From the NCBI GenBank assembly GCA_034431475.1, contig DAOUDE010000074.1, positions 31,348 through 95,347 on the forward strand: DNA of 64,000 nucleotides. Direction: 5' to 3'. Within the stretch, counting starts at the first letter, position 1; the number at the start of each line of letters is the position of its first letter. Under the pieces are notes generated by a model that worked only from the letters and a program-made list of their open reading frames with translations, did no database searches and was not told the origin of the DNA. Source of the DNA: Thermomicrobiales bacterium (GTDB taxonomy: Bacteria > Chloroflexota > Chloroflexia > Thermomicrobiales > UBA6265). Made by a program: the position numbers and the translations under genes. This document shows, piece by piece, positions 15,102-22,603 of this stretch.

Positions 15102-16163
15102 CTACGGATACCCCATGATAGGACGCGGCAGCGCCAGGTACGCGAGGTACGTGCCGTCAGCACTGAGCGCTGGCGACGTGCACGCCAACCCTGTCAACGT
15201 GTGCATGGTGGCTTCCGCGGTGCCTCCCCGCAGAACCGCAATCTGGCTCCCACTGTCTACCGCCAGCGTTCCGGTGGCATCGATCGCGGGATCGCGAGCG
15301 CCGTCAGCCAGAGCCGAGGTGACCGCCGACGGTTTTCCGCCCGTGGCTGGCAGCCGGTAAACGTCGCTCCGCCCCTCGACACTGGCCGAGTAGAGCAGGT
15401 CGTCAGTTGTCCTCTCCCAGATGATCGGAGCATTGGCCGTCATGCTTGTCAGGCGTCTTCCTGATCGCTCGGCAAGTTCCACGCGGAAGATCCCCGATGT
15501 CGCGCCCTTCTGCTCTGCCTGCACTGCCACAGCAATCGCCTCGCCGTCAGGCGACCAGGCCATGCTCGTCACGCTACTCCGTGCCACGTCGCTGTTTCCG
15601 CCACTCGCGCCACCCAGCGATGTCACCTGCTGCCGCATGTCCCCAATAACGTCGAAGACGCAAAGCTCATCGCCCTGTCCGTCCCAGCAGATGAACGCGA
15701 TCCGCGTCCCGTCTGGCGACCACGCAGGACCCCCACGCGTTACGATCGGGGGTCGGATGGCGCCATCTGGTCCGTCGTAGAGAGTTATGGGGGGAATCGT
15801 GGCCTCTGAATGGACGTTGACGATTCGCAGGAGCCGCGATTGCGGATCAAGGAACGCGATTTCGGAGTTATCTGGCGACCATGCCGGCCTGCCCACAATG
15901 TGCATCGCGGTCAGCAGGGAAACCTGGCTCGATGAGACGTTCCACACCTTCAGGCCGTGTTCGTCGCCCCAGGCCAGCATCTCACCATTCGGGGACCACG
16001 CAGGAGCGCCAAAAGTGTCGTCGATCCACCTGGGTGCACCCTCTGCTCCCGTGATGTAGAGCCCGGCGCGAGGCGAATCGGCCCTGCAGCCACAGAGAAT
16101 CAATGAGGCGCATGCTGCGCCAGACAATTGGAGCACCTGCCGGCGGGCAAGCCGCACGTTCAC
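15102..16163 (-). CDS. PD40 (TolB-like) beta-propeller repeat protein with Tat/lipoprotein-like signal
   Basis: 353 aa; N-terminus MNVRLARRQVLQLSGAACASLILCGC. Repeated AWSP(D/N)G blades (PAWSPNGEMLAW, PAWSPDNSEIAF, PAWSPDGTRIAF, MAWSPDGEAIAV). GTGA overlap with the recF stop. Confidence 0.8.
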   Translation of the reverse strand: MNVRLARRQVLQLSGAACASLILCGCRADSPRAGLYITGAEGAPRWIDDTFGAPAWSPNGEMLAWGDEHGLKVWNVSSSQVSLLTAMHIVGRPAWSPDNSEIAFLDPQSRLLRIVNVHSEATIPPITLYDGPDGAIRPPIVTRGGPAWSPDGTRIAFICWDGQGDELCVFDVIGDMRQQVTSLGGASGGNSDVARSSVTSMAWSPDGEAIAVAVQAEQKGATSGIFRVELAERSGRRLTSMTANAPIIWERTTDDLLYSASVEGRSDVYRLPATGGKPSAVTSALADGARDPAIDATGTLAVDSGSQIAVLRGGTAEATMHTLTGLACTSPALSADGTYLAYLALPRPIMGYP

Positions 16164-17383
16164 GCGGCGCTCTCGGCTGGGATCACCTGCCCAGCGGAAA
16201 CCTGGATGACCGGGAGGTGCGCAAGCTCGGGCGCATCCAGATCACTCAAATCCGTAGCGGTCACGCAAACCTGCGCGGGGCGCATCGCGATCGCTTCGAC
16301 GACCAGGCGGCGGTGACGCTGATCCAGCTCCGAGAGAACATCATCCAGGAGCAGCACTGGCGGCTCACCAGCACCACCTTGCAGCAGATCCACCTCGGCC
16401 AGCTTGGTGGCGACCAGTGCCAGCCGCTGCTGCCCGCGAGAACCAAATCTACCCAGGTCAACACCGTCGACTCGAAAGACGAGATCGTCACGGTGCGGAC
16501 CCACCGAAGTCACCCCACGTCGCAGTTCCTCCGCTCGCGCATTGCTCAGAGCACGCGCGAACTGAGCGGCTATCGTTTGCTGAACTCTGGTCATCTGCGG
16601 TTCATCGTGAGGCCCGCCAGTTGGCAAGCGGTCGATTGCCGTCAGGCGATGAGGTTGGTAAGCAATCTCGAGCGTCTCGATCCCTGTCAGGCGCGCGAAA
16701 TGCTCGCGTGCGAGGGCGTCCAGGCCGGCGACGTAAATGGCCCGTTCGGAGAGCACGATTGTCGCGGCCGAGATGAGTTCACTGTCCCAGAACGGGAGCT
16801 CCTGGGCGGCTCGTCGCACCGCCGCGCTGCCTGCCTCACGTGCCAGCGAGCGCAAGAGACCGTTTCGCTGCTCGAGAACGCGCGTGAACCGGGAGAGTCC
16901 TCGCAGATACGTGCGACGTGCCTGGCTGATGGCAAGATCGAGGAAGCGCCGTCTGCCGCCGGGGGGGCCGGAGAGAAGCTCAACGTCGTCTGGTGAAAAG
17001 AGGACGGTCTTGAACTGCCCGACGACATCGATGGCCCTGGCGGGCTGATCATCGAGCTGGACGCTCTTCTTGATGCCGCTTCGTCCGTGCTCGTCGATCG
17101 CCAGGCCGATAGCCACTGAGTGGACCCCGTCGGTTCTGGTGAACTCTCCGCGCAACCTGGCGTAGGGAGACAGACCAAACGCAACGCCACTCTCCCAATT
17201 TGCAAGTTCTCGCTCCGAGGAGGTTCGGGGCGAACGAGTCGTCGCCAGCATGGCGATCGCTTCCATCAAGGTGGACTTGCCGCTCGCATTGCTACCAACC
17301 GCGCGGAACCCGGCCGGGGCTACCTCCAGACGCAGCGACCGAAACGAGCGGAACTCATCGAGCTCAAGTAGACGGAGATGCAC
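16160..17383 (-). CDS. recF: DNA replication and repair protein RecF
   Basis: 407 aa; FRSFRSL...GSNASGKSTLMEAI Walker A, signature GSRGQQRLALVA, Walker B VLLLDDVLSELD. Confidence 0.95.
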   Translation of the reverse strand: MHLRLLELDEFRSFRSLRLEVAPAGFRAVGSNASGKSTLMEAIAMLATTRSPRTSSERELANWESGVAFGLSPYARLRGEFTRTDGVHSVAIGLAIDEHGRSGIKKSVQLDDQPARAIDVVGQFKTVLFSPDDVELLSGPPGGRRRFLDLAISQARRTYLRGLSRFTRVLEQRNGLLRSLAREAGSAAVRRAAQELPFWDSELISAATIVLSERAIYVAGLDALAREHFARLTGIETLEIAYQPHRLTAIDRLPTGGPHDEPQMTRVQQTIAAQFARALSNARAEELRRGVTSVGPHRDDLVFRVDGVDLGRFGSRGQQRLALVATKLAEVDLLQGGAGEPPVLLLDDVLSELDQRHRRLVVEAIAMRPAQVCVTATDLSDLDAPELAHLPVIQVSAGQVIPAESAA

Positions 17384-17398: not shown

Positions 17399-18541
17399 CT
17401 AGTTCGCGCCGATGACCATCGGCATGATCACGTAGGTGTAATCCGTCGATTCCAGCGGGCGCAGCACGCCGGCCTGGTTCGACCCATTCATACCGAGCAC
17501 TACGCGGCCGGTCCGCAGCACACTCAGGACATCAAGGAGATAGCGTGAGTTGAATGCGATCTGTCCTTCTGGCCCATTCACTGCCGCAGACATTTCGCTC
17601 TGGCTGCTTCCCCGTTCCGCTGCTGTCGCCGAGACCTGCACCTGACCCGGCGCAAGCTCATCCGCGCTCACCTTGGCGCCAATTCGCACCACATCATTAT
17701 TGTCGCGTGCAAAGAACCCGGCGCGGCGGACGGCCGTGAGAAATTCCTCACGGCTAAGCTCGATTTCTGTCGCAAACTCCCGAGGAATGATCTGCCGGAA
17801 ATCCGGGAACGTGCCATCGATGAGCCGGGATGAAAAGGTCGTATCCCCGGTGGAGACAACGAGTTGTCCCCTGTTTGGGGTGACGGTCAGTTCGACCGGT
17901 TCTGTGCGGTCCCCCAGGATACGGGAAAGCTCACGCATGGCTCTGGCTGGCACAATGATGTCCAGGCGCTCCGTCACCGGGGCCGCAAGCTGACCTTCAC
18001 GCACGGCCAACCGGAAGCCATCAGCCGAAGCCATCGTCAGGCGGTCATCATCGAACCGAATCAGGACTCCAGCCAGAACTGGCCGACTGTCATCGGAAGC
18101 TGCGGCGAACTCGACCAGTCCAATCATCTCTCGCAGAATCTGAGGATCAACCGTCGCAGTGTATCCCCCAGCTTCTGGTTGCGGCATGAGCGGAAATTCG
18201 TCCGCATCGATGCCGTTGATTTCTGCGTCGGCGCCCAGGCCCTGCACCTTGAGCACCAGGCGGCCCTGGTCATTGGAGAGGCGCACTGGCTCGGCCGGAA
18301 GCGTGTTCACGAACTCGGACAGCAACCGGGCATCCACCGTCATCCGGCCCTGCTCGGTCACCTGTGCGGGAATGGAGGTGGAAATCCCGATCTCCTGGTT
18401 CGTGGCAGCGAGCTTGAGTGAGTCTCCTTCCGCTTCAATGAGGACATTGCTGAGCACCGGGTAGGTTGTTTTGGTGGCAACAGCGCGACTGACCTGGCTC
18501 AACGAGCGCTGCAACAGGTCTTGAGGAGCTGAAACATCCAC
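17399..18541 (-). CDS. dnaN: DNA polymerase III beta sliding clamp
   Basis: 380 aa; three-domain clamp pattern, ends ...YTYVIMPMVIGAN. GTG start with GGGAG 10 nt upstream. Confidence 0.96.
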   Translation of the reverse strand: MDVSAPQDLLQRSLSQVSRAVATKTTYPVLSNVLIEAEGDSLKLAATNQEIGISTSIPAQVTEQGRMTVDARLLSEFVNTLPAEPVRLSNDQGRLVLKVQGLGADAEINGIDADEFPLMPQPEAGGYTATVDPQILREMIGLVEFAAASDDSRPVLAGVLIRFDDDRLTMASADGFRLAVREGQLAAPVTERLDIIVPARAMRELSRILGDRTEPVELTVTPNRGQLVVSTGDTTFSSRLIDGTFPDFRQIIPREFATEIELSREEFLTAVRRAGFFARDNNDVVRIGAKVSADELAPGQVQVSATAAERGSSQSEMSAAVNGPEGQIAFNSRYLLDVLSVLRTGRVVLGMNGSNQAGVLRPLESTDYTYVIMPMVIGAN

Positions 18542-18587
18542 CCTGAACCACTCCCGCTACGATGCTGTACGGACACTCCGGGCGGCG

Positions 18588-18596
18588 AGTATAGCA
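18588..18596 (-). promoter_or_regulatory. extended -10 element (TGcTATACT) upstream of dnaN
   Basis: Minus strand TGCTATACT; would give a leader of about 40 nt. No good -35. Confidence 0.35.
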
Positions 18597-18676
18597 TTGC
18601 CTTTCCCTAGTCTCCGGACGCCAATCTTTGGCGGCTGGTTGGTCGAGCACTTTCCTGCTTCCCGATCCGTGACACC

Positions 18677-18723
18677 TTGACATGCAGAACACGTGTTCTA
18701 TACTTCGTTCAGAACAAAAGTTC
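18677..18723 (+). promoter_or_regulatory. consensus promoter overlapped by two LexA (Cheo-type) SOS boxes
   Basis: TTGACA 18677-18682, 16-nt spacer, TATACT 18699-18704. Box 1 is GAACACGTGTTC at 18687-18698. Box 2 is GAACAAAAGTTC at 18712-18723. Both carry identical CAGAAC/GTTCTA flanks. Confidence 0.75.
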
Positions 18724-18743
18724 TAAACGCTCGGAGGTTGGGC

Positions 18744-19364
18744 ATGAGCGCAGTTGAAACATTCGAGCCGGCAAAGTTCCTGACACGGGTGAACGGCTCT
18801 GAGTATCTCGAAGTGAAGTGGCGTCTCGTTTGGCTGCGGGATCGTCATCCGGAAGCTCAGGTGGAAACCGAGCTTGTGAGCCACCATGGCGATACCGCGG
18901 TCTTTCGCGCCCGTGTGGCCATTCCGGACGGCGGGTCCGCGACCGGCTGGGGCAGCGAGTCTGCCGGCGATTTTCGTGACTATCTGGAGAAGGCCGAAAC
19001 CAAGGCCATTGGCCGTGCCCTTGCCGCGCTGGGCTTCGGCACGCAGTTCTGTCCCGATCATGAGTTCGGCGCGATGGCCGGGCGCGTCGTCGATGCGCCG
19101 GTGAAGGTGAGCCGCTTCTCTCGCGGGCAGCAAAATGATGAGCGGCCGGCCGCAGTGGCTCCTGCGCCGGAGCAAGCGGCTACGCAGCGCCAGTTGCGCT
19201 ACATGCAGGCCGTGGCGCGCGAGGCCGGGTTCGATGCCCAGGCACTCGATGAGCTGGCTACCAGGGAATTTGGCGGTCCGGCGATGTCCTTGAGCCGCCG
19301 CGATGCCTCGGCGTTGATTGACCTGATCCAGAACCAGCAGGCTGAGGTTCCCCTGGCGTCCTAG
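18744..19364 (+). CDS. SOS-box-controlled protein with Rad52/Sak/DdrA-like single-strand-annealing signature (function inferred)
   Basis: ATG 18744 six nt after GGAGG (18733-18737); the track ORF starts upstream at GTG 18693 inside the promoter. YLEVKWRLVWLRDRHP...YLEKAETKAIGRALAALGFG resembles the Rad52-family KxAx(S/T)xAxxRAxxxxG(F/I)G motif. High GC3. Confidence 0.6.
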   Translation: MSAVETFEPAKFLTRVNGSEYLEVKWRLVWLRDRHPEAQVETELVSHHGDTAVFRARVAIPDGGSATGWGSESAGDFRDYLEKAETKAIGRALAALGFGTQFCPDHEFGAMAGRVVDAPVKVSRFSRGQQNDERPAAVAPAPEQAATQRQLRYMQAVAREAGFDAQALDELATREFGGPAMSLSRRDASALIDLIQNQQAEVPLAS

Positions 19365-19378
19365 GCGCCACCAGGAAA

Positions 19379-19606
19379 ATGGAGGTCGCTGTGGCTCGAA
19401 CAACGAAGAAGAAGGCAGCCCCTGTGGCGGAGGTCAGCGTGCTGCAGGAGCGCCGAGCGGCGCTGCGAGGCCGACTTGATGACGGGTACAGGCGTATCGA
19501 GGAGGCCGAGTTGGCCGGCGCCGATGTCGCTGAGTGGGAAGCCTTCTGGTTCAAGTTGCTCCACGAGTATGAGGATGTCTGCCGCGAGCTCGATCAGGCC
19601 GCCTGA
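19379..19606 (+). CDS. small charged helical hypothetical protein, second gene of the SOS-box operon
   Basis: 75 aa (71 aa if GTG 19391, which has GGAGG 5 nt upstream). High GC3. Followed by a hairpin terminator. Confidence 0.55.
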   Translation: MEVAVARTTKKKAAPVAEVSVLQERRAALRGRLDDGYRRIEEAELAGADVAEWEAFWFKLLHEYEDVCRELDQAA

Positions 19607-19624
19607 CAGGTACGGCGTTACAAG

Positions 19625-19665
19625 GCAGGAGGGGCCATGCCGGTTTCCAGCATGGCCCCTCCTGC
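19625..19665 (+). terminator. hairpin terminator
   Basis: GCAGGAGGGGCCATGC-CGGTTTCCA-GCATGGCCCCTCCTGC, a 16-bp stem between convergent genes. Confidence 0.65.
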
Positions 19666-19681
19666 TTGGCGTACGTTTCCG

Positions 19682-20389
19682 CTAAGAGGCCGAGATCGTG
19701 ACCTTCTCGACGGTGATCGGCTCGTTCGGCGTAGAGTTTTCGCCTGACCGGCCGACCGAGGTCGGCGTGTTGGCAATGGCGTCCACCACATCCAGGCCCT
19801 CGGTCACTTTGCCAAAGATGGTGTAGTTCTTCGGGAGCTTGCCGCGTAGGTCATCCAGCACCACAAAGAACTGGCTGCCGTTCGTGTTCGGGCCCGCATT
19901 GGCCATTGCGAGAGTGCCACGCTCATAGTCGCGGGCAACTGGCTCGTCGTTGAACTTGTAGCCGGGGCCGCCCATGCCTGTGCCGGTCGGGTCACCACCC
20001 TGGATAACGAATCCCTTTACGATGCGGTGGAACGGCGTTCCATCGTAGTAGCCGTCGTCGGCCAGGCACACGAAGTTATTGACGGTGTTCGGTGCATCCG
20101 CCGGGAACAGCTCGGCGGTTATCGTGCCCTTGTTCGTTTCAATTGTTGCGGTGTAGGTCTTCGCCGGGTCGATCTTCATCGCCGGCGCTTGCGCGTACTG
20201 CTTGCCCAATGTTGGATCCTCCATGACCTGGTCAGCCGCCCAACAGTTCAATGCCGTGGGCGACGCTTCGGGGGTTGACTGCGCCGAGACATTGGCGCTC
20301 AGTCCAGCACCGAGCAAGATCACTGCCACAGCGCCGGTGAGCCCGCCAAACCGTGCGCCCCGGGTTCGTGCGAAATTCACTCCTGCCAT
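19682..20389 (-). CDS. ppiB: secreted cyclophilin-type peptidyl-prolyl cis-trans isomerase
   Basis: 235 aa; signal-like N-terminus; FHRIVKGFVIQGGDPTGTGMGGPGYKFNDE and GTLAMANAGPNTNGSQFF. Confidence 0.93.
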   Translation of the reverse strand: MAGVNFARTRGARFGGLTGAVAVILLGAGLSANVSAQSTPEASPTALNCWAADQVMEDPTLGKQYAQAPAMKIDPAKTYTATIETNKGTITAELFPADAPNTVNNFVCLADDGYYDGTPFHRIVKGFVIQGGDPTGTGMGGPGYKFNDEPVARDYERGTLAMANAGPNTNGSQFFVVLDDLRGKLPKNYTIFGKVTEGLDVVDAIANTPTSVGRSGENSTPNEPITVEKVTISAS

Positions 20390-20399
20390 CCTCTGCCTT

Positions 20400-21470
20400 T
20401 CACCGGATAAGCATCGCGTCTCCGAACGAGAAGAACCGGTACCGTCGCCTCACAGCCTCAGCGTATGCACGCAAGATAGCCTCTCGCCCGGCCAGAGCGC
20501 TGACCAGCATGAGCAGCGTTGACCGAGGCAGATGGAAATTGGTCAGCAGCGCGTCCACGATCTTCCAGTCGTGACCCGGCACGATGAACTCGCCAGTCAT
20601 GCCGGAAAAGCCCTGTGGCTCGTCGTCATTCCACGTTCTGCCCAGGGTCTCGAGCGTCCGCGCGGCCGTGGTGCCGACAGCGACCACGCGGTTGCCACGC
20701 CGGCGGCACGCGGCGATCTCTACGGCCGTCGCTTGTGAGACCTCACACCACTCCTGATGGATATGATGCTCGGCCACATCTTCGACCGCGACTGGTCGAA
20801 ACGTATCCAGGCCAACGTGCAAGGTCACCTCGGTCCACCCAATACCGCACGCATGCAACTGCGATACCAGATCCTCCGTGAAATGAAGCCCAGCGGTGGG
20901 AGCCGCTGCCGAACCTGCTCGCGTGGCGTAGACCGTCTGGTAGCGCTCTTCGTCCTCAAGTCGCTCCATGATGTAGGGAGGCAACGGCGCCACGCCGTAG
21001 TCGGAGAGACGGGTATCGGCATCATCCTCGAACCGAACCGTAATCTCCCCTTCACCGCGTTGCGAAAGCACCTCCGCTATTGCCGGGTCGACGCCAGGCG
21101 CGCGCGAAGGAATCACGAGACGCTCTCCAGGCCGGAGCTTGCGAGCTGGCCGAGCCAGCGCACTCCACCCGCTGCTTTCCTGGCGCAGGAGCAGCAGCTC
21201 GACGCCGCCGCCGGTTGCTTCACGATGGCCGTACAGCCGCGCGGGTATCACCCGGCTGTTGTTGGCAACCAGGAGATCCCCCGTGGTCAGAAAATCGGGC
21301 AAACTGGAAAACGCGGCGTGCGTGACTTCCCCGCTCGTTCTGGACAGGACAAGGAGTCGGGAGGCGTCGCGCCGGTCGAGGGGAGTTTGCGCGATGAGCT
21401 CATGCGGCAGGTCGTAGTCGAAATCTGAGGTGCGCAATCGGCCCAGAGCAGATGGCTGACGTTCCGTCAC
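20400..21470 (-). CDS. queA: tRNA preQ1(34) S-adenosylmethionine ribosyltransferase-isomerase
   Basis: [19 protein letters not shown]-terminus, PLPPYI motif. Start set at GTG 21468-21470, which forms a GTGA overlap with the ruvB stop. Confidence 0.92.
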
Positions 21471-22552
21471 TCCTGATCCACGCCGAAGAGCGCCCACTGC
21501 TGCGCGGCGGGCATCGGTGGCTCGAGCCCCAGGTGCGCGTACGCCCCTTCCGTCGCCATGCGGCCGCGCGGCGTACGTTGCAGGAACCCGAGTTTGATCA
21601 GGTATGGCTCGTAGACATCCATCACCGTGTCGGTCTCTTCGCTGATTGCTGCCGCCAGCGTGTCGATACCAACCGGCCCGCCACCGAACTTCTCGACAAT
21701 CGCAACAAGGATGCGCCGGTCGATATCGTCCAGCCCGAGTTCGTCGATGTCCAGCATGGCAAGCGCTTCGGACGCAATGTCATCCGTAATTGCGCCCTCG
21801 CCTCGGACCTCCGCGAAATCCCGAGCGCGTCGCAGCAACCGGTTCGCAACCCGGGGCGTTCCTCGGGCACGTACGGCCAATGCGCGCGCGCCCTCCTGGG
21901 AAATTGGCACGCCCAGCACGTCGGCGGAACGGGTCACAATCTCTTCCATAGCGGCATCGCTGTAGAAATCGAGGCGCAGCACCGAACCAAACCGGTCTCG
22001 CAACGGACCGGTCAGCAGCGCGAGCCGGGTGGTCGCCCCCACCAGGGTAAAGTGCGGCAGGTTGATTCGCATTGTGCGCGCTGCCGGACCCTTGCCCAGC
22101 ACGATATCGACCGCGTAATCCTCCATCGCCGAGTACAGAATCTCTTCCACCGCCCGGTTGAGCCGGTGGATCTCATCGATGAAGAGCACATCACCTGGTT
22201 TGAGGTTGGTCAGGATCGAAACGAGATCTCCCTGCCGCTCGACTGCCGGGCCTGACGTGATGCGCAAGCTCACGCCCATTTCGGCGGCGATGATCGTGGC
22301 GAGGGTGGTCTTCCCAAGCCCAGGCGGCCCATAGAAGAGGACGTGGTCGAGCGTTTCACCGCGTCGCTGTGCCGCCTCGATGTACACCTGCAGCGTGTCC
22401 TTCACCCGCTCCTGGCCGATATATTCAGCCAGCCGGCGTGGGCGCAAACTCCGCTCGATCGGCGCGTCCTCCGGCGTTACGCGCGGCGAAACGTCCCGCT
22501 CGACGGGTGATGACTGACGGCTGCTGCGAATGGCGGATGAGGGCTGCGACAT
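21467..22552 (-). CDS. ruvB: Holliday junction branch migration helicase RuvB
   Basis: [19 protein letters not shown], Walker [12 protein letters not shown], Walker [10 protein letters not shown]. Start at ATG 22550-22552 (MSQPSSAI...). Confidence 0.96.
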
Positions 22553-22558
22553 GCCGCG

Positions 22559-22587
22559 AGTATAGCAGAAGTTCAGCACACATGTTC
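22559..22587 (-). promoter_or_regulatory. extended -10 (TGcTATACT) six nt from the ruvB ATG, plus a one-mismatch LexA-like box
   Basis: Minus strand GAACATGTGTGC (22587-22576), then TGCTATACT (-10 at 22564-22559), then CGCGGC, then ATG. Confidence 0.4.
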
Positions 22588-22603
22588 TGAAATAATGCGT
22601 GGA

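What the first reader, a model, noticed from the sequence alone, without database searches (positions are those of the whole stretch)
18677..19665. Two perfect LexA boxes on a consensus promoter drive a Rad52/DdrA-like protein and a 75-aa partner, divergent from dnaN
Positions 18677-18704 read TTGACA, 16 nt, TATACT. The spacer holds cAGAACACGTGTTCTa (core 18687-18698). Eight nt after the -10 lies a second box, cAGAACAAAAGTTCTa (core 18712-18723). Both fit the GAAC-N4-GTTC Cheo/DinR-type LexA operator and share identical flanks, so LexA would occlude both the RNAP site and the transcription start.

The first gene (ATG 18744, RBS GGAGG) carries YLEKAETKAIGRALAALGFG. This looks like the conserved helix-hairpin signature of Rad52/Sak/DdrA single-strand-annealing proteins. 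A Pro/Ala linker and a helical C-terminal module follow (ATQRQLRYMQAVAREAGF...LSRRDASALIDLI). A small charged helical ORF follows 14 nt later, and a 16-bp hairpin closes the unit.

There are no phage, integrase or GC-content signs. It therefore looks like a resident, damage-inducible annealing module beside dnaN-recF rather than prophage cargo. I know of no description of such an operon.
Basis: partly seen in the sequence, partly recalled or inferred. Interest (0 to 1): 0.72.

Follow-up and report, generated by a model that had tools for sequence, protein, structure and literature searches.

The report
SOS-controlled Rad52-like DNA annealing operon
A soil/hot-spring bacterium of the order Thermomicrobiales keeps, next to its replication-clamp gene, a two-gene operon that looks DNA-damage-inducible and encodes a phage-derived relative of the Rad52 DNA-annealing protein plus a small clade-specific helper, a combination not described before as far as I could find.

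Summary
A near-consensus promoter (TTGACA, 16 nt, TATACT; 18677-18704) carries the only two exact GAAC-N4-GTTC palindromes in 64 kb, one in the spacer and one at the predicted transcription start.

In 81 related Thermomicrobiales loci, 79 keep at least one such box within 130 nt upstream of the orthologue. The same box recurs at ruvB (36 of 44 loci) and, with one mismatch, at one recA. This fits a LexA operator.

Gene 1 (206 aa) has no hit in the local Pfam, NCBIfam or PDB sequence searches. Its precomputed label is PF27148 (Slr1353_N). Its AlphaFold model (pLDDT 85) has a beta-beta-alpha-beta-beta-beta-alpha N-domain. The best PDB matches are all Rad52-superfamily annealing proteins: phage 80alpha Sak, human RAD52 and yeast Mgm101. 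The wider family is large and mostly lies in phage early regions. Those copies lack the LexA box and the partner gene.

The chromosomal copy diverges in step with dnaN (r = 0.89), so it is a resident, domesticated gene.

Gene 2 (71-75 aa) is a helical hairpin confined to this order. It usually ends in -AA.

LexA binding, damage induction and annealing activity remain untested. Verdict: a new variant of a known kind, of moderate to good interest.

The parts
18677..18682 (+). -35 hexamer TTGACA
   Evidence: Sequence; promoter scan 11 of 12. TTGACA is kept in related loci.
18686..18699 (+). Operator 1, AGAACACGTGTTCT (core 18687-18698), lying in the -35/-10 spacer. Present only in the sublineage nearest the window and in a few others.
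   Evidence: Two boxes are seen in L001-L005, L007, L008, L021, L034, L041, L045-L047, L050 and L075.
18699..18704 (+). -10 hexamer TATACT
18711..18724 (+). Operator 2, AGAACAAAAGTTCT (core 18712-18723), at the predicted transcription start. This is the position kept in nearly all orthologous loci.
   Evidence: Flanks among 94 boxes: A at -1 in 88%, T at +1 in 82%.
18733..18737 (+). Ribosome-binding site GGAGG of gene 1
   Evidence: Sequence.
18744..19364 (+). Gene 1 (206 aa): a two-domain protein of the Slr1353_N family, with a Rad52-fold N-domain, a disordered linker and a three-helix C-domain.
18762..19049 (+). N-terminal domain (aa 7-102), fold beta-beta-alpha-beta-beta-beta-alpha. Invariant residues include Y21, W30, P36, G90, R91, G97 and G99. 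Signature EKAETKAIGRALAALGFG.
   Evidence: AlphaFold pLDDT above 90 over this stretch. Foldseek hits to Sak, RAD52 and Mgm101. hhalign aligns R91 with RAD52 R153.
19080..19103 (+). Conserved motif GRVVDAPV (aa 113-120) inside the low-confidence linker. It is a candidate contact between subunits or with a partner.
   Evidence: D117 and P119 are nearly invariant. pLDDT is below 50 for residues 103-128. The role is inferred.
19179..19343 (+). C-terminal three-helix module (aa 146-200), ATxxQ...LSRRDASALIDLI.
   Evidence: pLDDT 94-98. The matching region of relatives hits Pfam GemA (14 of 66, best 9e-7) and DUF3072 (12 of 66, best 3e-6). It is duplicated in some relatives.
19379..19606 (+). Gene 2 (75 aa from ATG 19379, or 71 aa from GTG 19391). 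An acidic antiparallel helical hairpin with core RLxDGYxRIExAxxxGxDVxxWExFWxxLLxEYE and a C-terminal -AA.
19624..19666 (.). Stem-loop between the convergent gene 2 and the prolyl isomerase gene. Probably a terminator for both directions; it has no T-run.
   Evidence: -50.4 kcal/mol, z = -6.5. A similar hairpin is present in L001. Not called by the T-run terminator scan.
17399..18541 (-). dnaN, the divergent neighbour (context, not part of the operon)
22575..22588 (-). Degenerate box AGAACATGTGTGCT upstream of ruvB. It is context that supports the motif marking a damage regulon.

Best explanation
This is a LexA-repressed, damage-inducible two-gene operon that is a fixed part of the Thermomicrobiales chromosome.

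Regulation. In undamaged cells LexA dimers would occupy two AGAAC-N4-GTTCT operators. One lies between the -35 and -10 hexamers and one at the transcription start of a near-consensus sigma-A promoter, so RNA polymerase is kept off. After DNA damage, RecA-stimulated self-cleavage of LexA would free the promoter. One mRNA of about 0.95 kb would then be made, ending at the strong hairpin.

Gene 1. It encodes a Rad52-superfamily single-strand annealing protein that came from a phage recombination module. [quoted passage not shown] These rings would pair complementary strands or protect 3' ends during double-strand-break or gap repair. A flexible linker tethers a three-helix GemA/DUF3072-like module that most likely docks partners.

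Gene 2. It encodes a lineage-specific acidic helical hairpin that most likely binds and modulates gene 1's protein. Its conserved C-terminal -AA suggests rapid turnover by ClpXP.

What is shown: the anatomy, the conservation, the fold, the phage origin of the family and the vertical inheritance.

What is inferred: LexA binding, induction by damage, ring formation, annealing activity, the interaction of the two proteins and the degron.
For: Operator:
- The only two exact boxes in 64 kb sit on the promoter.
- 79 of 81 orthologous loci keep a box, and 94 of the 144 boxes in 894 kb lie within 130 nt upstream of the gene.
- The layout TTGACA, 17-18 nt, -10, then AGAAC-N4-GTTCT recurs even where flanking sequence has diverged and where dnaN is not adjacent (L048, L052, L066, L068).
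- The same motif is at ruvB in 36 of 44 loci, or 41 of 44 allowing one mismatch.
- One recA promoter carries tAGAACAAATTTTCTg right after its -10.
- Viral relatives serve as a negative control: only 1 of 80 has a box within 300 nt upstream.

Protein 1:
- AlphaFold pLDDT 84.9.
- The top 17 PDB hits are all Sak, RAD52 or Mgm101.
- BFVD hits include proteins named SAK3, Rad52/59/22 and single-strand annealing protein, and one fused to a RecE-type PDDEXK exonuclease.
- hhalign places EKAETKAIGRALAALGF on RAD52 [20 protein letters not shown].
- Phage relatives sit beside helicase, primase, Holliday-junction resolvase, SSB, Sipho_Gp157, HNH nuclease and Mu Gam genes.
- 14 of 270 relatives end in an SSB-like acidic -PF tip.

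Residency:
- Conserved synteny with dnaN, and identity that correlates with DnaN identity at r = 0.89 over 65 loci.
- Flat G+C content.
- No phage genes nearby.

Protein 2:
- Present after gene 1 in about 75 of 81 loci.
- Only 264 relatives among 5.8 billion proteins, and every named one is from Thermomicrobiales or Chloroflexia.
- Helical-hairpin model with pLDDT 81.
- 53 of 73 orthologues end in -AA.
Against: - No lexA gene was seen in the window or in any fetched locus. LexA's presence and specificity in this order rest on the motif and on outside knowledge.
- The window's own ruvB site has one mismatch, and the single recA example also has one mismatch.
- An attempt to collect more recA promoters returned taxonomically mixed loci and settled nothing.
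- No member of the family reaches Pfam Rad52_Rad22 at E <= 0.1.
- Profile searches against PDB sequences find no Rad52.
- The hhalign match is weak (E = 0.042).
- Foldseek TM-scores are modest, 0.3-0.5, because the model has two domains.
- Thermomicrobiaceae lack gene 2, and two Thermomicrobium-like loci lack the box, so neither is obligatory.
- Nothing shows that the two proteins interact.
Confidence: 0.68

Rival explanations
1. The operon and its regulation are as described, but protein 1 does not anneal strands. It acts instead as a DNA-end protector like DdrA, as a RecA mediator, or as a plain single-stranded-DNA binder, for example during replication restart next to dnaN-recF.
For: The Thermus phage P23-45 relative is annotated 'ssDNA binding protein'. 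From my own knowledge, Rad52-family members have several activities: RAD52 mediates Rad51 loading and DdrA protects 3' ends. The conserved position beside dnaN-recF hints at a link to replication or gap repair.
Against: The closest structural matches (Sak, RAD52, Mgm101, SAK3) are all demonstrated or annotated annealing proteins. Phage contexts are recombination modules, and one relative is fused to a RecE-type exonuclease. Adjacency to dnaN is lost in about 10 loci without loss of the box.
Confidence: 0.2
2. The palindromes are bound by a regulator other than LexA, for instance an XRE-type or other repressor. The operon would then not belong to an SOS response.
For: lexA was never observed here. 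The ruvB boxes have different flanks, with C rather than A at -1 in 62%.
Against: GAAC-N4-GTTC with an A/T-rich centre is the classical LexA (DinR, Cheo) box of Gram-positive bacteria (B. subtilis consensus cited in PMC3091678). From my own memory, it was also reported for the Chloroflexi member Dehalococcoides ethenogenes. The motif sits at ruvB and recA, which are standard SOS genes.
Confidence: 0.07
3. The pair is leftover or selfish phage cargo. It could be a cryptic prophage remnant, or an SOS-triggered toxin-antitoxin or anti-phage decoy pair, with no role in host repair.
For: The family is abundant in phages and prophages. Gene 2 is small, acidic and possibly unstable, as many antitoxins are.
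Against: Synteny holds across about 70 species, and divergence matches that of DnaN. There are no integrase or phage genes nearby and no compositional shift. PADLOC gives no hit. Phage copies lack gene 2 and the box. Protein sequence is under strong purifying conservation.
Confidence: 0.05

Closest known systems
Phage Sak-type Rad52-like annealing proteins (Staphylococcus phage 80alpha Sak, PDB 8qe9 and 8pq8; lactococcal Sak and Sak3)
   Same: These are the best structural matches. 8pq8 gives TM 0.53 and rmsd 3.8 A over 115 columns; 8qe9 gives E = 1.3e-4. The architecture is the same: an N-terminal annealing core followed by a C-terminal domain. Relatives of the window protein occupy the same place in phage early recombination and replication modules.
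   Different: Sequence identity is only 12-16%, and there is no hit to the Rad52_Rad22 Pfam model. The window gene is chromosomal, vertically inherited, under a putative LexA operator, and followed by a clade-specific small protein.
Eukaryotic RAD52 and mitochondrial Mgm101
   Same: The same beta-beta-beta-alpha core. The signature helix aligns, [20 protein letters not shown] against EKAETKAIGRALAALGFG. The invariant R91 falls on RAD52 R153, which I recall as a DNA-binding residue.
   Different: There is no detectable sequence-profile relationship. The C-terminal half is different, a GemA/DUF3072-like three-helix module rather than RPA- and RAD51-binding regions. Ring formation was not tested.
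Deinococcus DdrA
   Same: The closest functional analogue: a cellular bacterial Rad52-family protein induced by DNA damage (my own knowledge; see also PMC1978522, PMC4627823 and PMC6300522 listed).
   Different: From my own knowledge, DdrA belongs to Pfam Rad52_Rad22 and is controlled by the DdrO/PprI radiation-desiccation response motif, not by LexA. The window protein misses that Pfam model and carries Gram-positive-type LexA boxes. No direct comparison with a DdrA sequence was run.
Pfam PF27148 Slr1353_N (named after Synechocystis slr1353)
   Same: The window protein's close relatives carry this precomputed domain label.
   Different: The model is absent from the local Pfam copy. I found no functional description. 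The only paper that mentions slr1353 lists an antisense RNA.
Gram-positive-type SOS regulon (LexA/DinR, Cheo box CGAAC-N4-GTTCG)
   Same: The same core palindrome with an A/T-rich centre, overlapping the promoter. It is shared with ruvB and recA in the clade.
   Different: The flanks are A/T (AGAAC...GTTCT) rather than C/G. I did not find an annealing protein listed as an SOS regulon member in the literature I searched.

Membership tests
Rad52 superfamily of single-strand annealing proteins (Rad52, Sak, Mgm101, DdrA) | N-terminal beta-beta-beta-alpha core fold | tested here: met
   The AlphaFold model has E39-48, E51-60, E64-73 and H80-95, preceded by a hairpin and H24-34, with pLDDT above 90. 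The Foldseek PDB top 17 hits are all Sak, RAD52 or Mgm101 with probability about 1.00. BFVD returns SAK3 and Rad52 hits.
Rad52 superfamily of single-strand annealing proteins (Rad52, Sak, Mgm101, DdrA) | Match to the Pfam Rad52_Rad22 sequence model | tested here: not met
   No hit at E <= 1 for the window protein, and none at E <= 0.1 for 66 family members.
Rad52 superfamily of single-strand annealing proteins (Rad52, Sak, Mgm101, DdrA) | Conserved basic and aromatic DNA-groove residues (RAD52 Y65, K152, R153, R156) | tested here: inconclusive
   hhalign puts the invariant R91 on R153, at 40% identity over 42 columns but E = 0.042. The Y21 to Y65 equivalence is by eye only.
Rad52 superfamily of single-strand annealing proteins (Rad52, Sak, Mgm101, DdrA) | Ring oligomer, single-stranded-DNA binding and strand annealing | not testable with these tools
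   Needs biochemistry or cryo-EM.
Rad52 superfamily of single-strand annealing proteins (Rad52, Sak, Mgm101, DdrA) | Phage relatives located in recombination and replication modules | tested here: met
   P23-45: helicase, Holliday-junction resolvase, primase. LL-Ku: SSB, HNH nuclease, resolvase. IMG/VR neighbours: Sipho_Gp157, SSB, HNHc_6, Mu Gam. Prophage-like early regions.
LexA (SOS) regulon, GAAC-N4-GTTC type | Palindromic operator overlapping the promoter | tested here: met
   Two exact boxes, one in the spacer and one at the predicted start.
LexA (SOS) regulon, GAAC-N4-GTTC type | Operator conserved upstream of orthologues (phylogenetic footprint) | tested here: met
   79 of 81 loci. 94 of 144 boxes in 894 kb lie in the 130-nt window. 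The promoter-plus-box layout is conserved. Viral control: 1 of 80.
LexA (SOS) regulon, GAAC-N4-GTTC type | Same motif at canonical SOS genes (lexA, recA, uvrA, ruvAB) of the same clade | tested here: inconclusive
   ruvB: 36 of 44 exact, 41 of 44 allowing one mismatch. recA: a single example with one mismatch. lexA and uvrA were not found in any fetched DNA. The metagenome recA set was too mixed to use.
LexA (SOS) regulon, GAAC-N4-GTTC type | LexA binding and induction by DNA damage | not testable with these tools
   Needs gel shift or ChIP and RNA-seq.
Pfam PF27148 Slr1353_N | Match to the family model | tested here: inconclusive
   All 120 close homologues and two distant ones carry the precomputed label. 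The local Pfam copy gives no hit for the window protein, presumably because the model is newer than that copy.
GemA / DUF3072-like helical module (C-terminal domain) | Match to PF06252 or PF11272 | tested here: inconclusive
   The window protein has no hit. 14 and 12 of 66 relatives hit, with best E-values 9e-7 and 3e-6.
Prophage or mobile-element cargo | Integrase or phage genes nearby, a compositional shift, patchy distribution | tested here: not met
   Neighbours are dnaN, recF, a prolyl isomerase, queA and ruvB. G+C is flat. Synteny is conserved and divergence tracks DnaN.
Known anti-phage defence systems (PADLOC) | Match to a defence-protein model | tested here: not met
   No hit for either protein at E <= 1.

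The most novel reading that the evidence does not exclude
Thermomicrobiales captured a phage Rad52-type annealing protein early in their history and wired it into the LexA regulon. They also evolved a dedicated, short-lived helical-hairpin partner (gene 2, with an -AA degron). Together these would form a previously unrecognised, damage-inducible pathway of single-strand-annealing or ESDSA-like double-strand-break repair in a free-living bacterial order. It would be a LexA-controlled counterpart of Deinococcus DdrA, with gene 2 timing or restraining annealing activity.
Probability: 0.3. Interest if true: 0.72.

Novelty: new variant of a known kind. Interest (0 to 1): 0.6.

Why it matters
Rad52-type annealing proteins in bacteria are known almost only from phages. 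Deinococcus DdrA is the notable cellular exception.

Here a whole order of Chloroflexota keeps one as a core gene, under what looks like SOS control and paired with an orphan partner protein. If confirmed, this would add an annealing function to the bacterial SOS repertoire. It would also be a clear case of a phage recombinase being domesticated, and it would help explain how these often thermophilic, desiccation-exposed bacteria repair broken chromosomes.

It also gives a function to a large uncharacterised family: Slr1353_N, with about 3,900 clusters at 50% identity. It points as well to thermostable annealing proteins that could be useful for recombineering.

The predictions can be tested directly with gel shifts, RNA-seq and annealing assays.

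Tried and rejected
Sequence searches that gave no useful name:
- Pfam, NCBIfam and PADLOC scans of both proteins gave nothing.
- PHROGs gave only families of unknown function.
- Single-sequence and profile searches against PDB sequences found no Rad52; the only hits were marginal MarR and gasdermin matches.

Structure libraries:
- The fold search for gene 2 returned only generic helical hairpins such as the seryl-tRNA synthetase arm and designed proteins, so no function follows.

Search for lexA and recA:
- A search of the window with E. coli LexA and RecA sequences written from memory found neither gene.
- The same search across the 81 loci found one recA and no lexA.
- A metagenome scan with that recA returned loci from many phyla. 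The only close one (83% identity) is cut 79 nt upstream, so it could not test the operator.

Literature:
- Searches for PF27148, slr1353, an SOS-controlled Rad52 or annealing protein, and the Thermus phage homologue found no description.
- I could not retrieve a citable source for the Chloroflexi LexA box, so that point rests on my memory.

Other:
- Rfam finds no RNA family in the region. The hairpin gives only chance microRNA hits far below threshold.

Readings considered and rejected: prophage cargo, a defence system, and the idea that the boxes belong to dnaN. The last fails because the box stays with gene 1 where dnaN is absent.
Full report
**Observation.**
- TTGACA lies at 18677-18682, followed by a 16-nt spacer and TATACT at 18699-18704.
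- cAGAACACGTGTTCTa has its core at 18687-18698, and cAGAACAAAAGTTCTa at 18712-18723.
- GGAGG lies at 18733-18737 and the ATG at 18744.
- Gene 1 stops at 19364. A second ORF starts 14 nt later and ends at 19606.
- A perfect 16-bp stem (19625-19640 paired with 19650-19665) follows.

The consensus scan finds this promoter (11 of 12) as the only one in 18400-19800, where 0.1 are expected. The two boxes are the only exact GAAC-N4-GTTC matches in the 64-kb window, where about one is expected. The hairpin folds at -50.4 kcal/mol with z = -6.5. G+C content is flat.

There are two small corrections. Seven nt, not eight, separate the -10 from the second core. Gene 2 may start at GTG 19391 behind GGAGG 19381-19385, giving 71 aa, which is the start a gene caller chose on a 94%-identical contig.

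**Organism and neighbourhood.** The closest relatives of gene 1 are from Thermomicrobiales (Chloroflexota) metagenome-assembled genomes, at 92-97% identity. The local gene order is:
- a beta-propeller protein, recF and dnaN on the minus strand;
- gene 1 and gene 2 on the plus strand;
- a secreted prolyl isomerase, queA, ruvB, NAD kinase and a Nudix/NrtR-like gene on the minus strand.

There are no integrase or phage genes.

**The boxes are a conserved operator.** I fetched 80 genome loci, all from Thermomicrobiales or Chloroflexia, plus one metagenome contig.
- 79 of the 81 loci have at least one exact GAAC-N4-GTTC within 130 nt upstream of the orthologue.
- 94 of all 144 boxes in the 894 kb fetched lie in that short window. 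The background is 0.056 per kb.
- The layout is preserved even where surrounding sequence has diverged: TTGACA, 17-18 nt, a -10 hexamer, a few nt, then (A)GAAC-N4-GTTC(T), a leader, the ribosome-binding site and the ATG.
- A at -1 occurs in 88% of the boxes and T at +1 in 82%. The centre is A/T-rich, as in Gram-positive LexA sites (B. subtilis consensus in PMC3091678).
- Most genomes have only the box at the transcription start. The additional spacer box is a feature of the window's sublineage and a few others.
- Where dnaN is not adjacent (L048, L052, L066, L068 and others), the box stays with gene 1. It therefore belongs to this gene and not to dnaN.

**Is the regulator LexA?** A second recurrent box lies 3.8-6.5 kb downstream of gene 1's start in the fetched loci. 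It sits exactly at the start of ruvB, a standard SOS gene. 36 of 44 loci have an exact box there, and 41 of 44 if one mismatch is allowed. In the window this site has decayed to AGAACATGTGTGCT (22575-22588).

One locus happens to include recA. Its promoter reads TTGACA, 17 nt, TATTAT, then tAGAACAAATTTTCTg, which has one mismatch.

I found no lexA in any DNA I could fetch. A metagenome scan for more recA promoters was too taxonomically mixed to help. From memory, LexA of the Chloroflexi member Dehalococcoides ethenogenes binds the Gram-positive-type box, but I could not retrieve that paper. LexA control is therefore well supported by inference. It has not been shown.

**Gene 1.** The local Pfam, NCBIfam and PDB sequence searches give nothing. 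The precomputed label for its homologues is PF27148, Slr1353_N, for which I found no functional literature. The family is large, with 3,876 clusters at 50% identity.

An alignment of 66 members shows three parts:
- a strongly conserved N-domain of about 100 residues, with invariant F7, Y21, W30, P36, A52, G90, R91, G97 and G99;
- a variable linker that contains the conserved motif GRVVDAPV;
- one or two copies of a helical ATxxQ...L(S/T)xx(E/D)ASxLI module.

AlphaFold (pLDDT 84.9) models the N-domain as beta-beta-alpha-beta-beta-beta-alpha, a disordered linker at residues 103-128, and a three-helix C-domain.

Foldseek against the PDB returns only Rad52-superfamily annealing proteins in its top 17 hits. 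These are phage 80alpha Sak, human RAD52 and yeast Mgm101, at E = 1e-4 to 1e-2, probability about 1.00 and 12-16% identity. The viral structure library adds proteins named SAK3, Rad52/59/22 and single-strand annealing protein. It also returns one relative fused to a RecE-type exonuclease domain.

A profile comparison with RAD52(1-212), whose sequence I wrote from memory, aligns the hairpin-helix signature at 40% identity over 42 columns and puts the invariant R91 on R153. The match is weak, at E = 0.042. No family member reaches Pfam Rad52_Rad22.

So the protein has the Rad52 fold, but it is not a sequence-level member of the Rad52_Rad22 family.

The C-domain of 14 and 12 of the 66 relatives hits Pfam GemA and DUF3072 respectively. 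The function of that module is unknown.

**Origin of the family.**
- N-domain homologues occur in Thermus phages P23-45, P74-26, G20c and TSP4 and in Lactobacillus phage LL-Ku. They sit beside helicase, primase, SSB and Holliday-junction resolvase genes.
- 119 IMG/VR viral contigs carry a relative. Genes next to it include Sipho_Gp157, SSB, HNH nucleases and Mu Gam.
- Two distant cellular representatives lie in prophage-like early regions with a cI/cro-like repressor pair, replication genes and RusA.
- None of the 80 viral loci has gene 2 or dnaN. Only one has a box within 300 nt upstream.
- In contrast, identity of the chromosomal copy to the query tracks that of DnaN across 65 loci (r = 0.89).

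The simplest reading is a phage annealing protein that was domesticated early in Thermomicrobiales and placed under the damage regulon.

**Gene 2.**
- It follows gene 1 in about 75 of 81 loci but is missing in Thermomicrobiaceae.
- It has only 264 relatives among 5.8 billion proteins. Every named one is from Thermomicrobiales or Chloroflexia, and none has a Pfam domain.
- Its conserved core is RLxDGYxRIExAxxxGxDVxxWExFWxxLLxEYE.
- It is modelled as an antiparallel helical hairpin with pLDDT 81.
- It has no informative structural neighbours.
- 53 of 73 orthologues end in -AA.

From my own knowledge, that ending resembles the C-terminal ClpXP recognition class. The ssrA tag (LAA) and the LexA N-terminal cleavage fragment (VAA) belong to it. 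A short-lived modulator of gene 1's protein is my best guess, and it is only a guess.

**Mechanism.**
- Shown: the promoter and operator anatomy, its conservation, the Rad52 fold, the phage ancestry, the vertical inheritance, the partner's distribution and the hairpin.
- Inferred: LexA occupies both operators and blocks RNA polymerase; damage relieves this; protein 1 forms rings that bind and anneal single-stranded DNA; its tethered C-domain and the GRVVDAPV motif recruit partners; protein 2 binds and regulates it and is turned over quickly.

**Rivals.**
- A non-annealing role, such as end protection, RecA mediation or plain single-stranded-DNA binding: probability 0.2.
- A repressor other than LexA: 0.07.
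- Selfish phage remnant, toxin-antitoxin pair or defence system: 0.05. Synteny, co-divergence with DnaN and the lack of any PADLOC hit argue against this.

**Comparison and novelty.** The operon works like a Sak/Rad52 annealing protein placed in a Gram-positive-type SOS regulon. Its nearest cellular analogue is Deinococcus DdrA, which as I recall belongs to a different sequence family and answers to a different regulator (DdrO/PprI). I found no description of a LexA-controlled chromosomal Rad52-type protein or of gene 2's family. I rate it a new variant of a known kind, with interest 0.6.

Noticed in passing
window 22552-22600 (minus strand), upstream of ruvB (21467-22552): ruvB has a one-mismatch box, AGAACATGTGTGCT, followed by TATACT only 6 nt before the likely ATG (MSQPSS...). 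That suggests a leaderless or nearly leaderless mRNA. 36 of 44 related genomes keep an exact box here, so the window's lineage (with L002-L004) may be losing ruvB repression.
   Followed up: partly
L077 1173-1300 (minus strand): The recA of a related Thermomicrobiales genome has TTGACA, 17 nt, TATTAT, then tAGAACAAATTTTCTg. This is the same promoter-plus-box layout as gene 1, with one mismatch.
   Followed up: partly
proteins P0013, P0121, P0128, P0141, P0144, P0206, P0213, P0235 and others: 14 of 270 family members end in an acidic stretch plus -PF (for example LEDIPF, EELEIPF, GEPLPF). This resembles the C-terminal tip of bacterial SSB and hints that some members recruit SSB-binding proteins. 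The window protein ends in EVPLAS and lacks it.
   Followed up: no
window 19601-19606 and p2 orthologues in L001-L079: 53 of 73 gene 2 orthologues end in the dipeptide -AA, although the residues before it vary. This may be a ClpXP-type degron.
   Followed up: partly
window 19379-19393: The start of gene 2 is ambiguous: ATG 19379 (75 aa), or GTG 19391 (71 aa) with a GGAGG five nt upstream. Database homologues are called with either length.
   Followed up: partly
window 19080-19103 (gene 1, aa 113-120): A nearly invariant GRVVDAPV motif lies in the part of gene 1's protein that AlphaFold models as disordered. This is typical of a short linear interaction motif, or of a segment that orders only in the oligomer.
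   Followed up: no
L048, L052, L066, L068, L080, L081: Thermomicrobiaceae-type loci (Thermalbibacter, Thermomicrobium, HR26/HR28) carry gene 1 without gene 2. Four of them also lack dnaN nearby. L080 and L081 have no exact box upstream of gene 1 but keep one at ruvB.
   Followed up: partly
window 15102-17383 (minus strand): recF overlaps by 4 nt a downstream 353-aa protein with a PD40/Tricorn-like beta-propeller and a lipoprotein-like N-terminus. The arrangement dnaN-recF-propeller is kept in L001. It is an odd companion for replication and repair genes.
   Followed up: no
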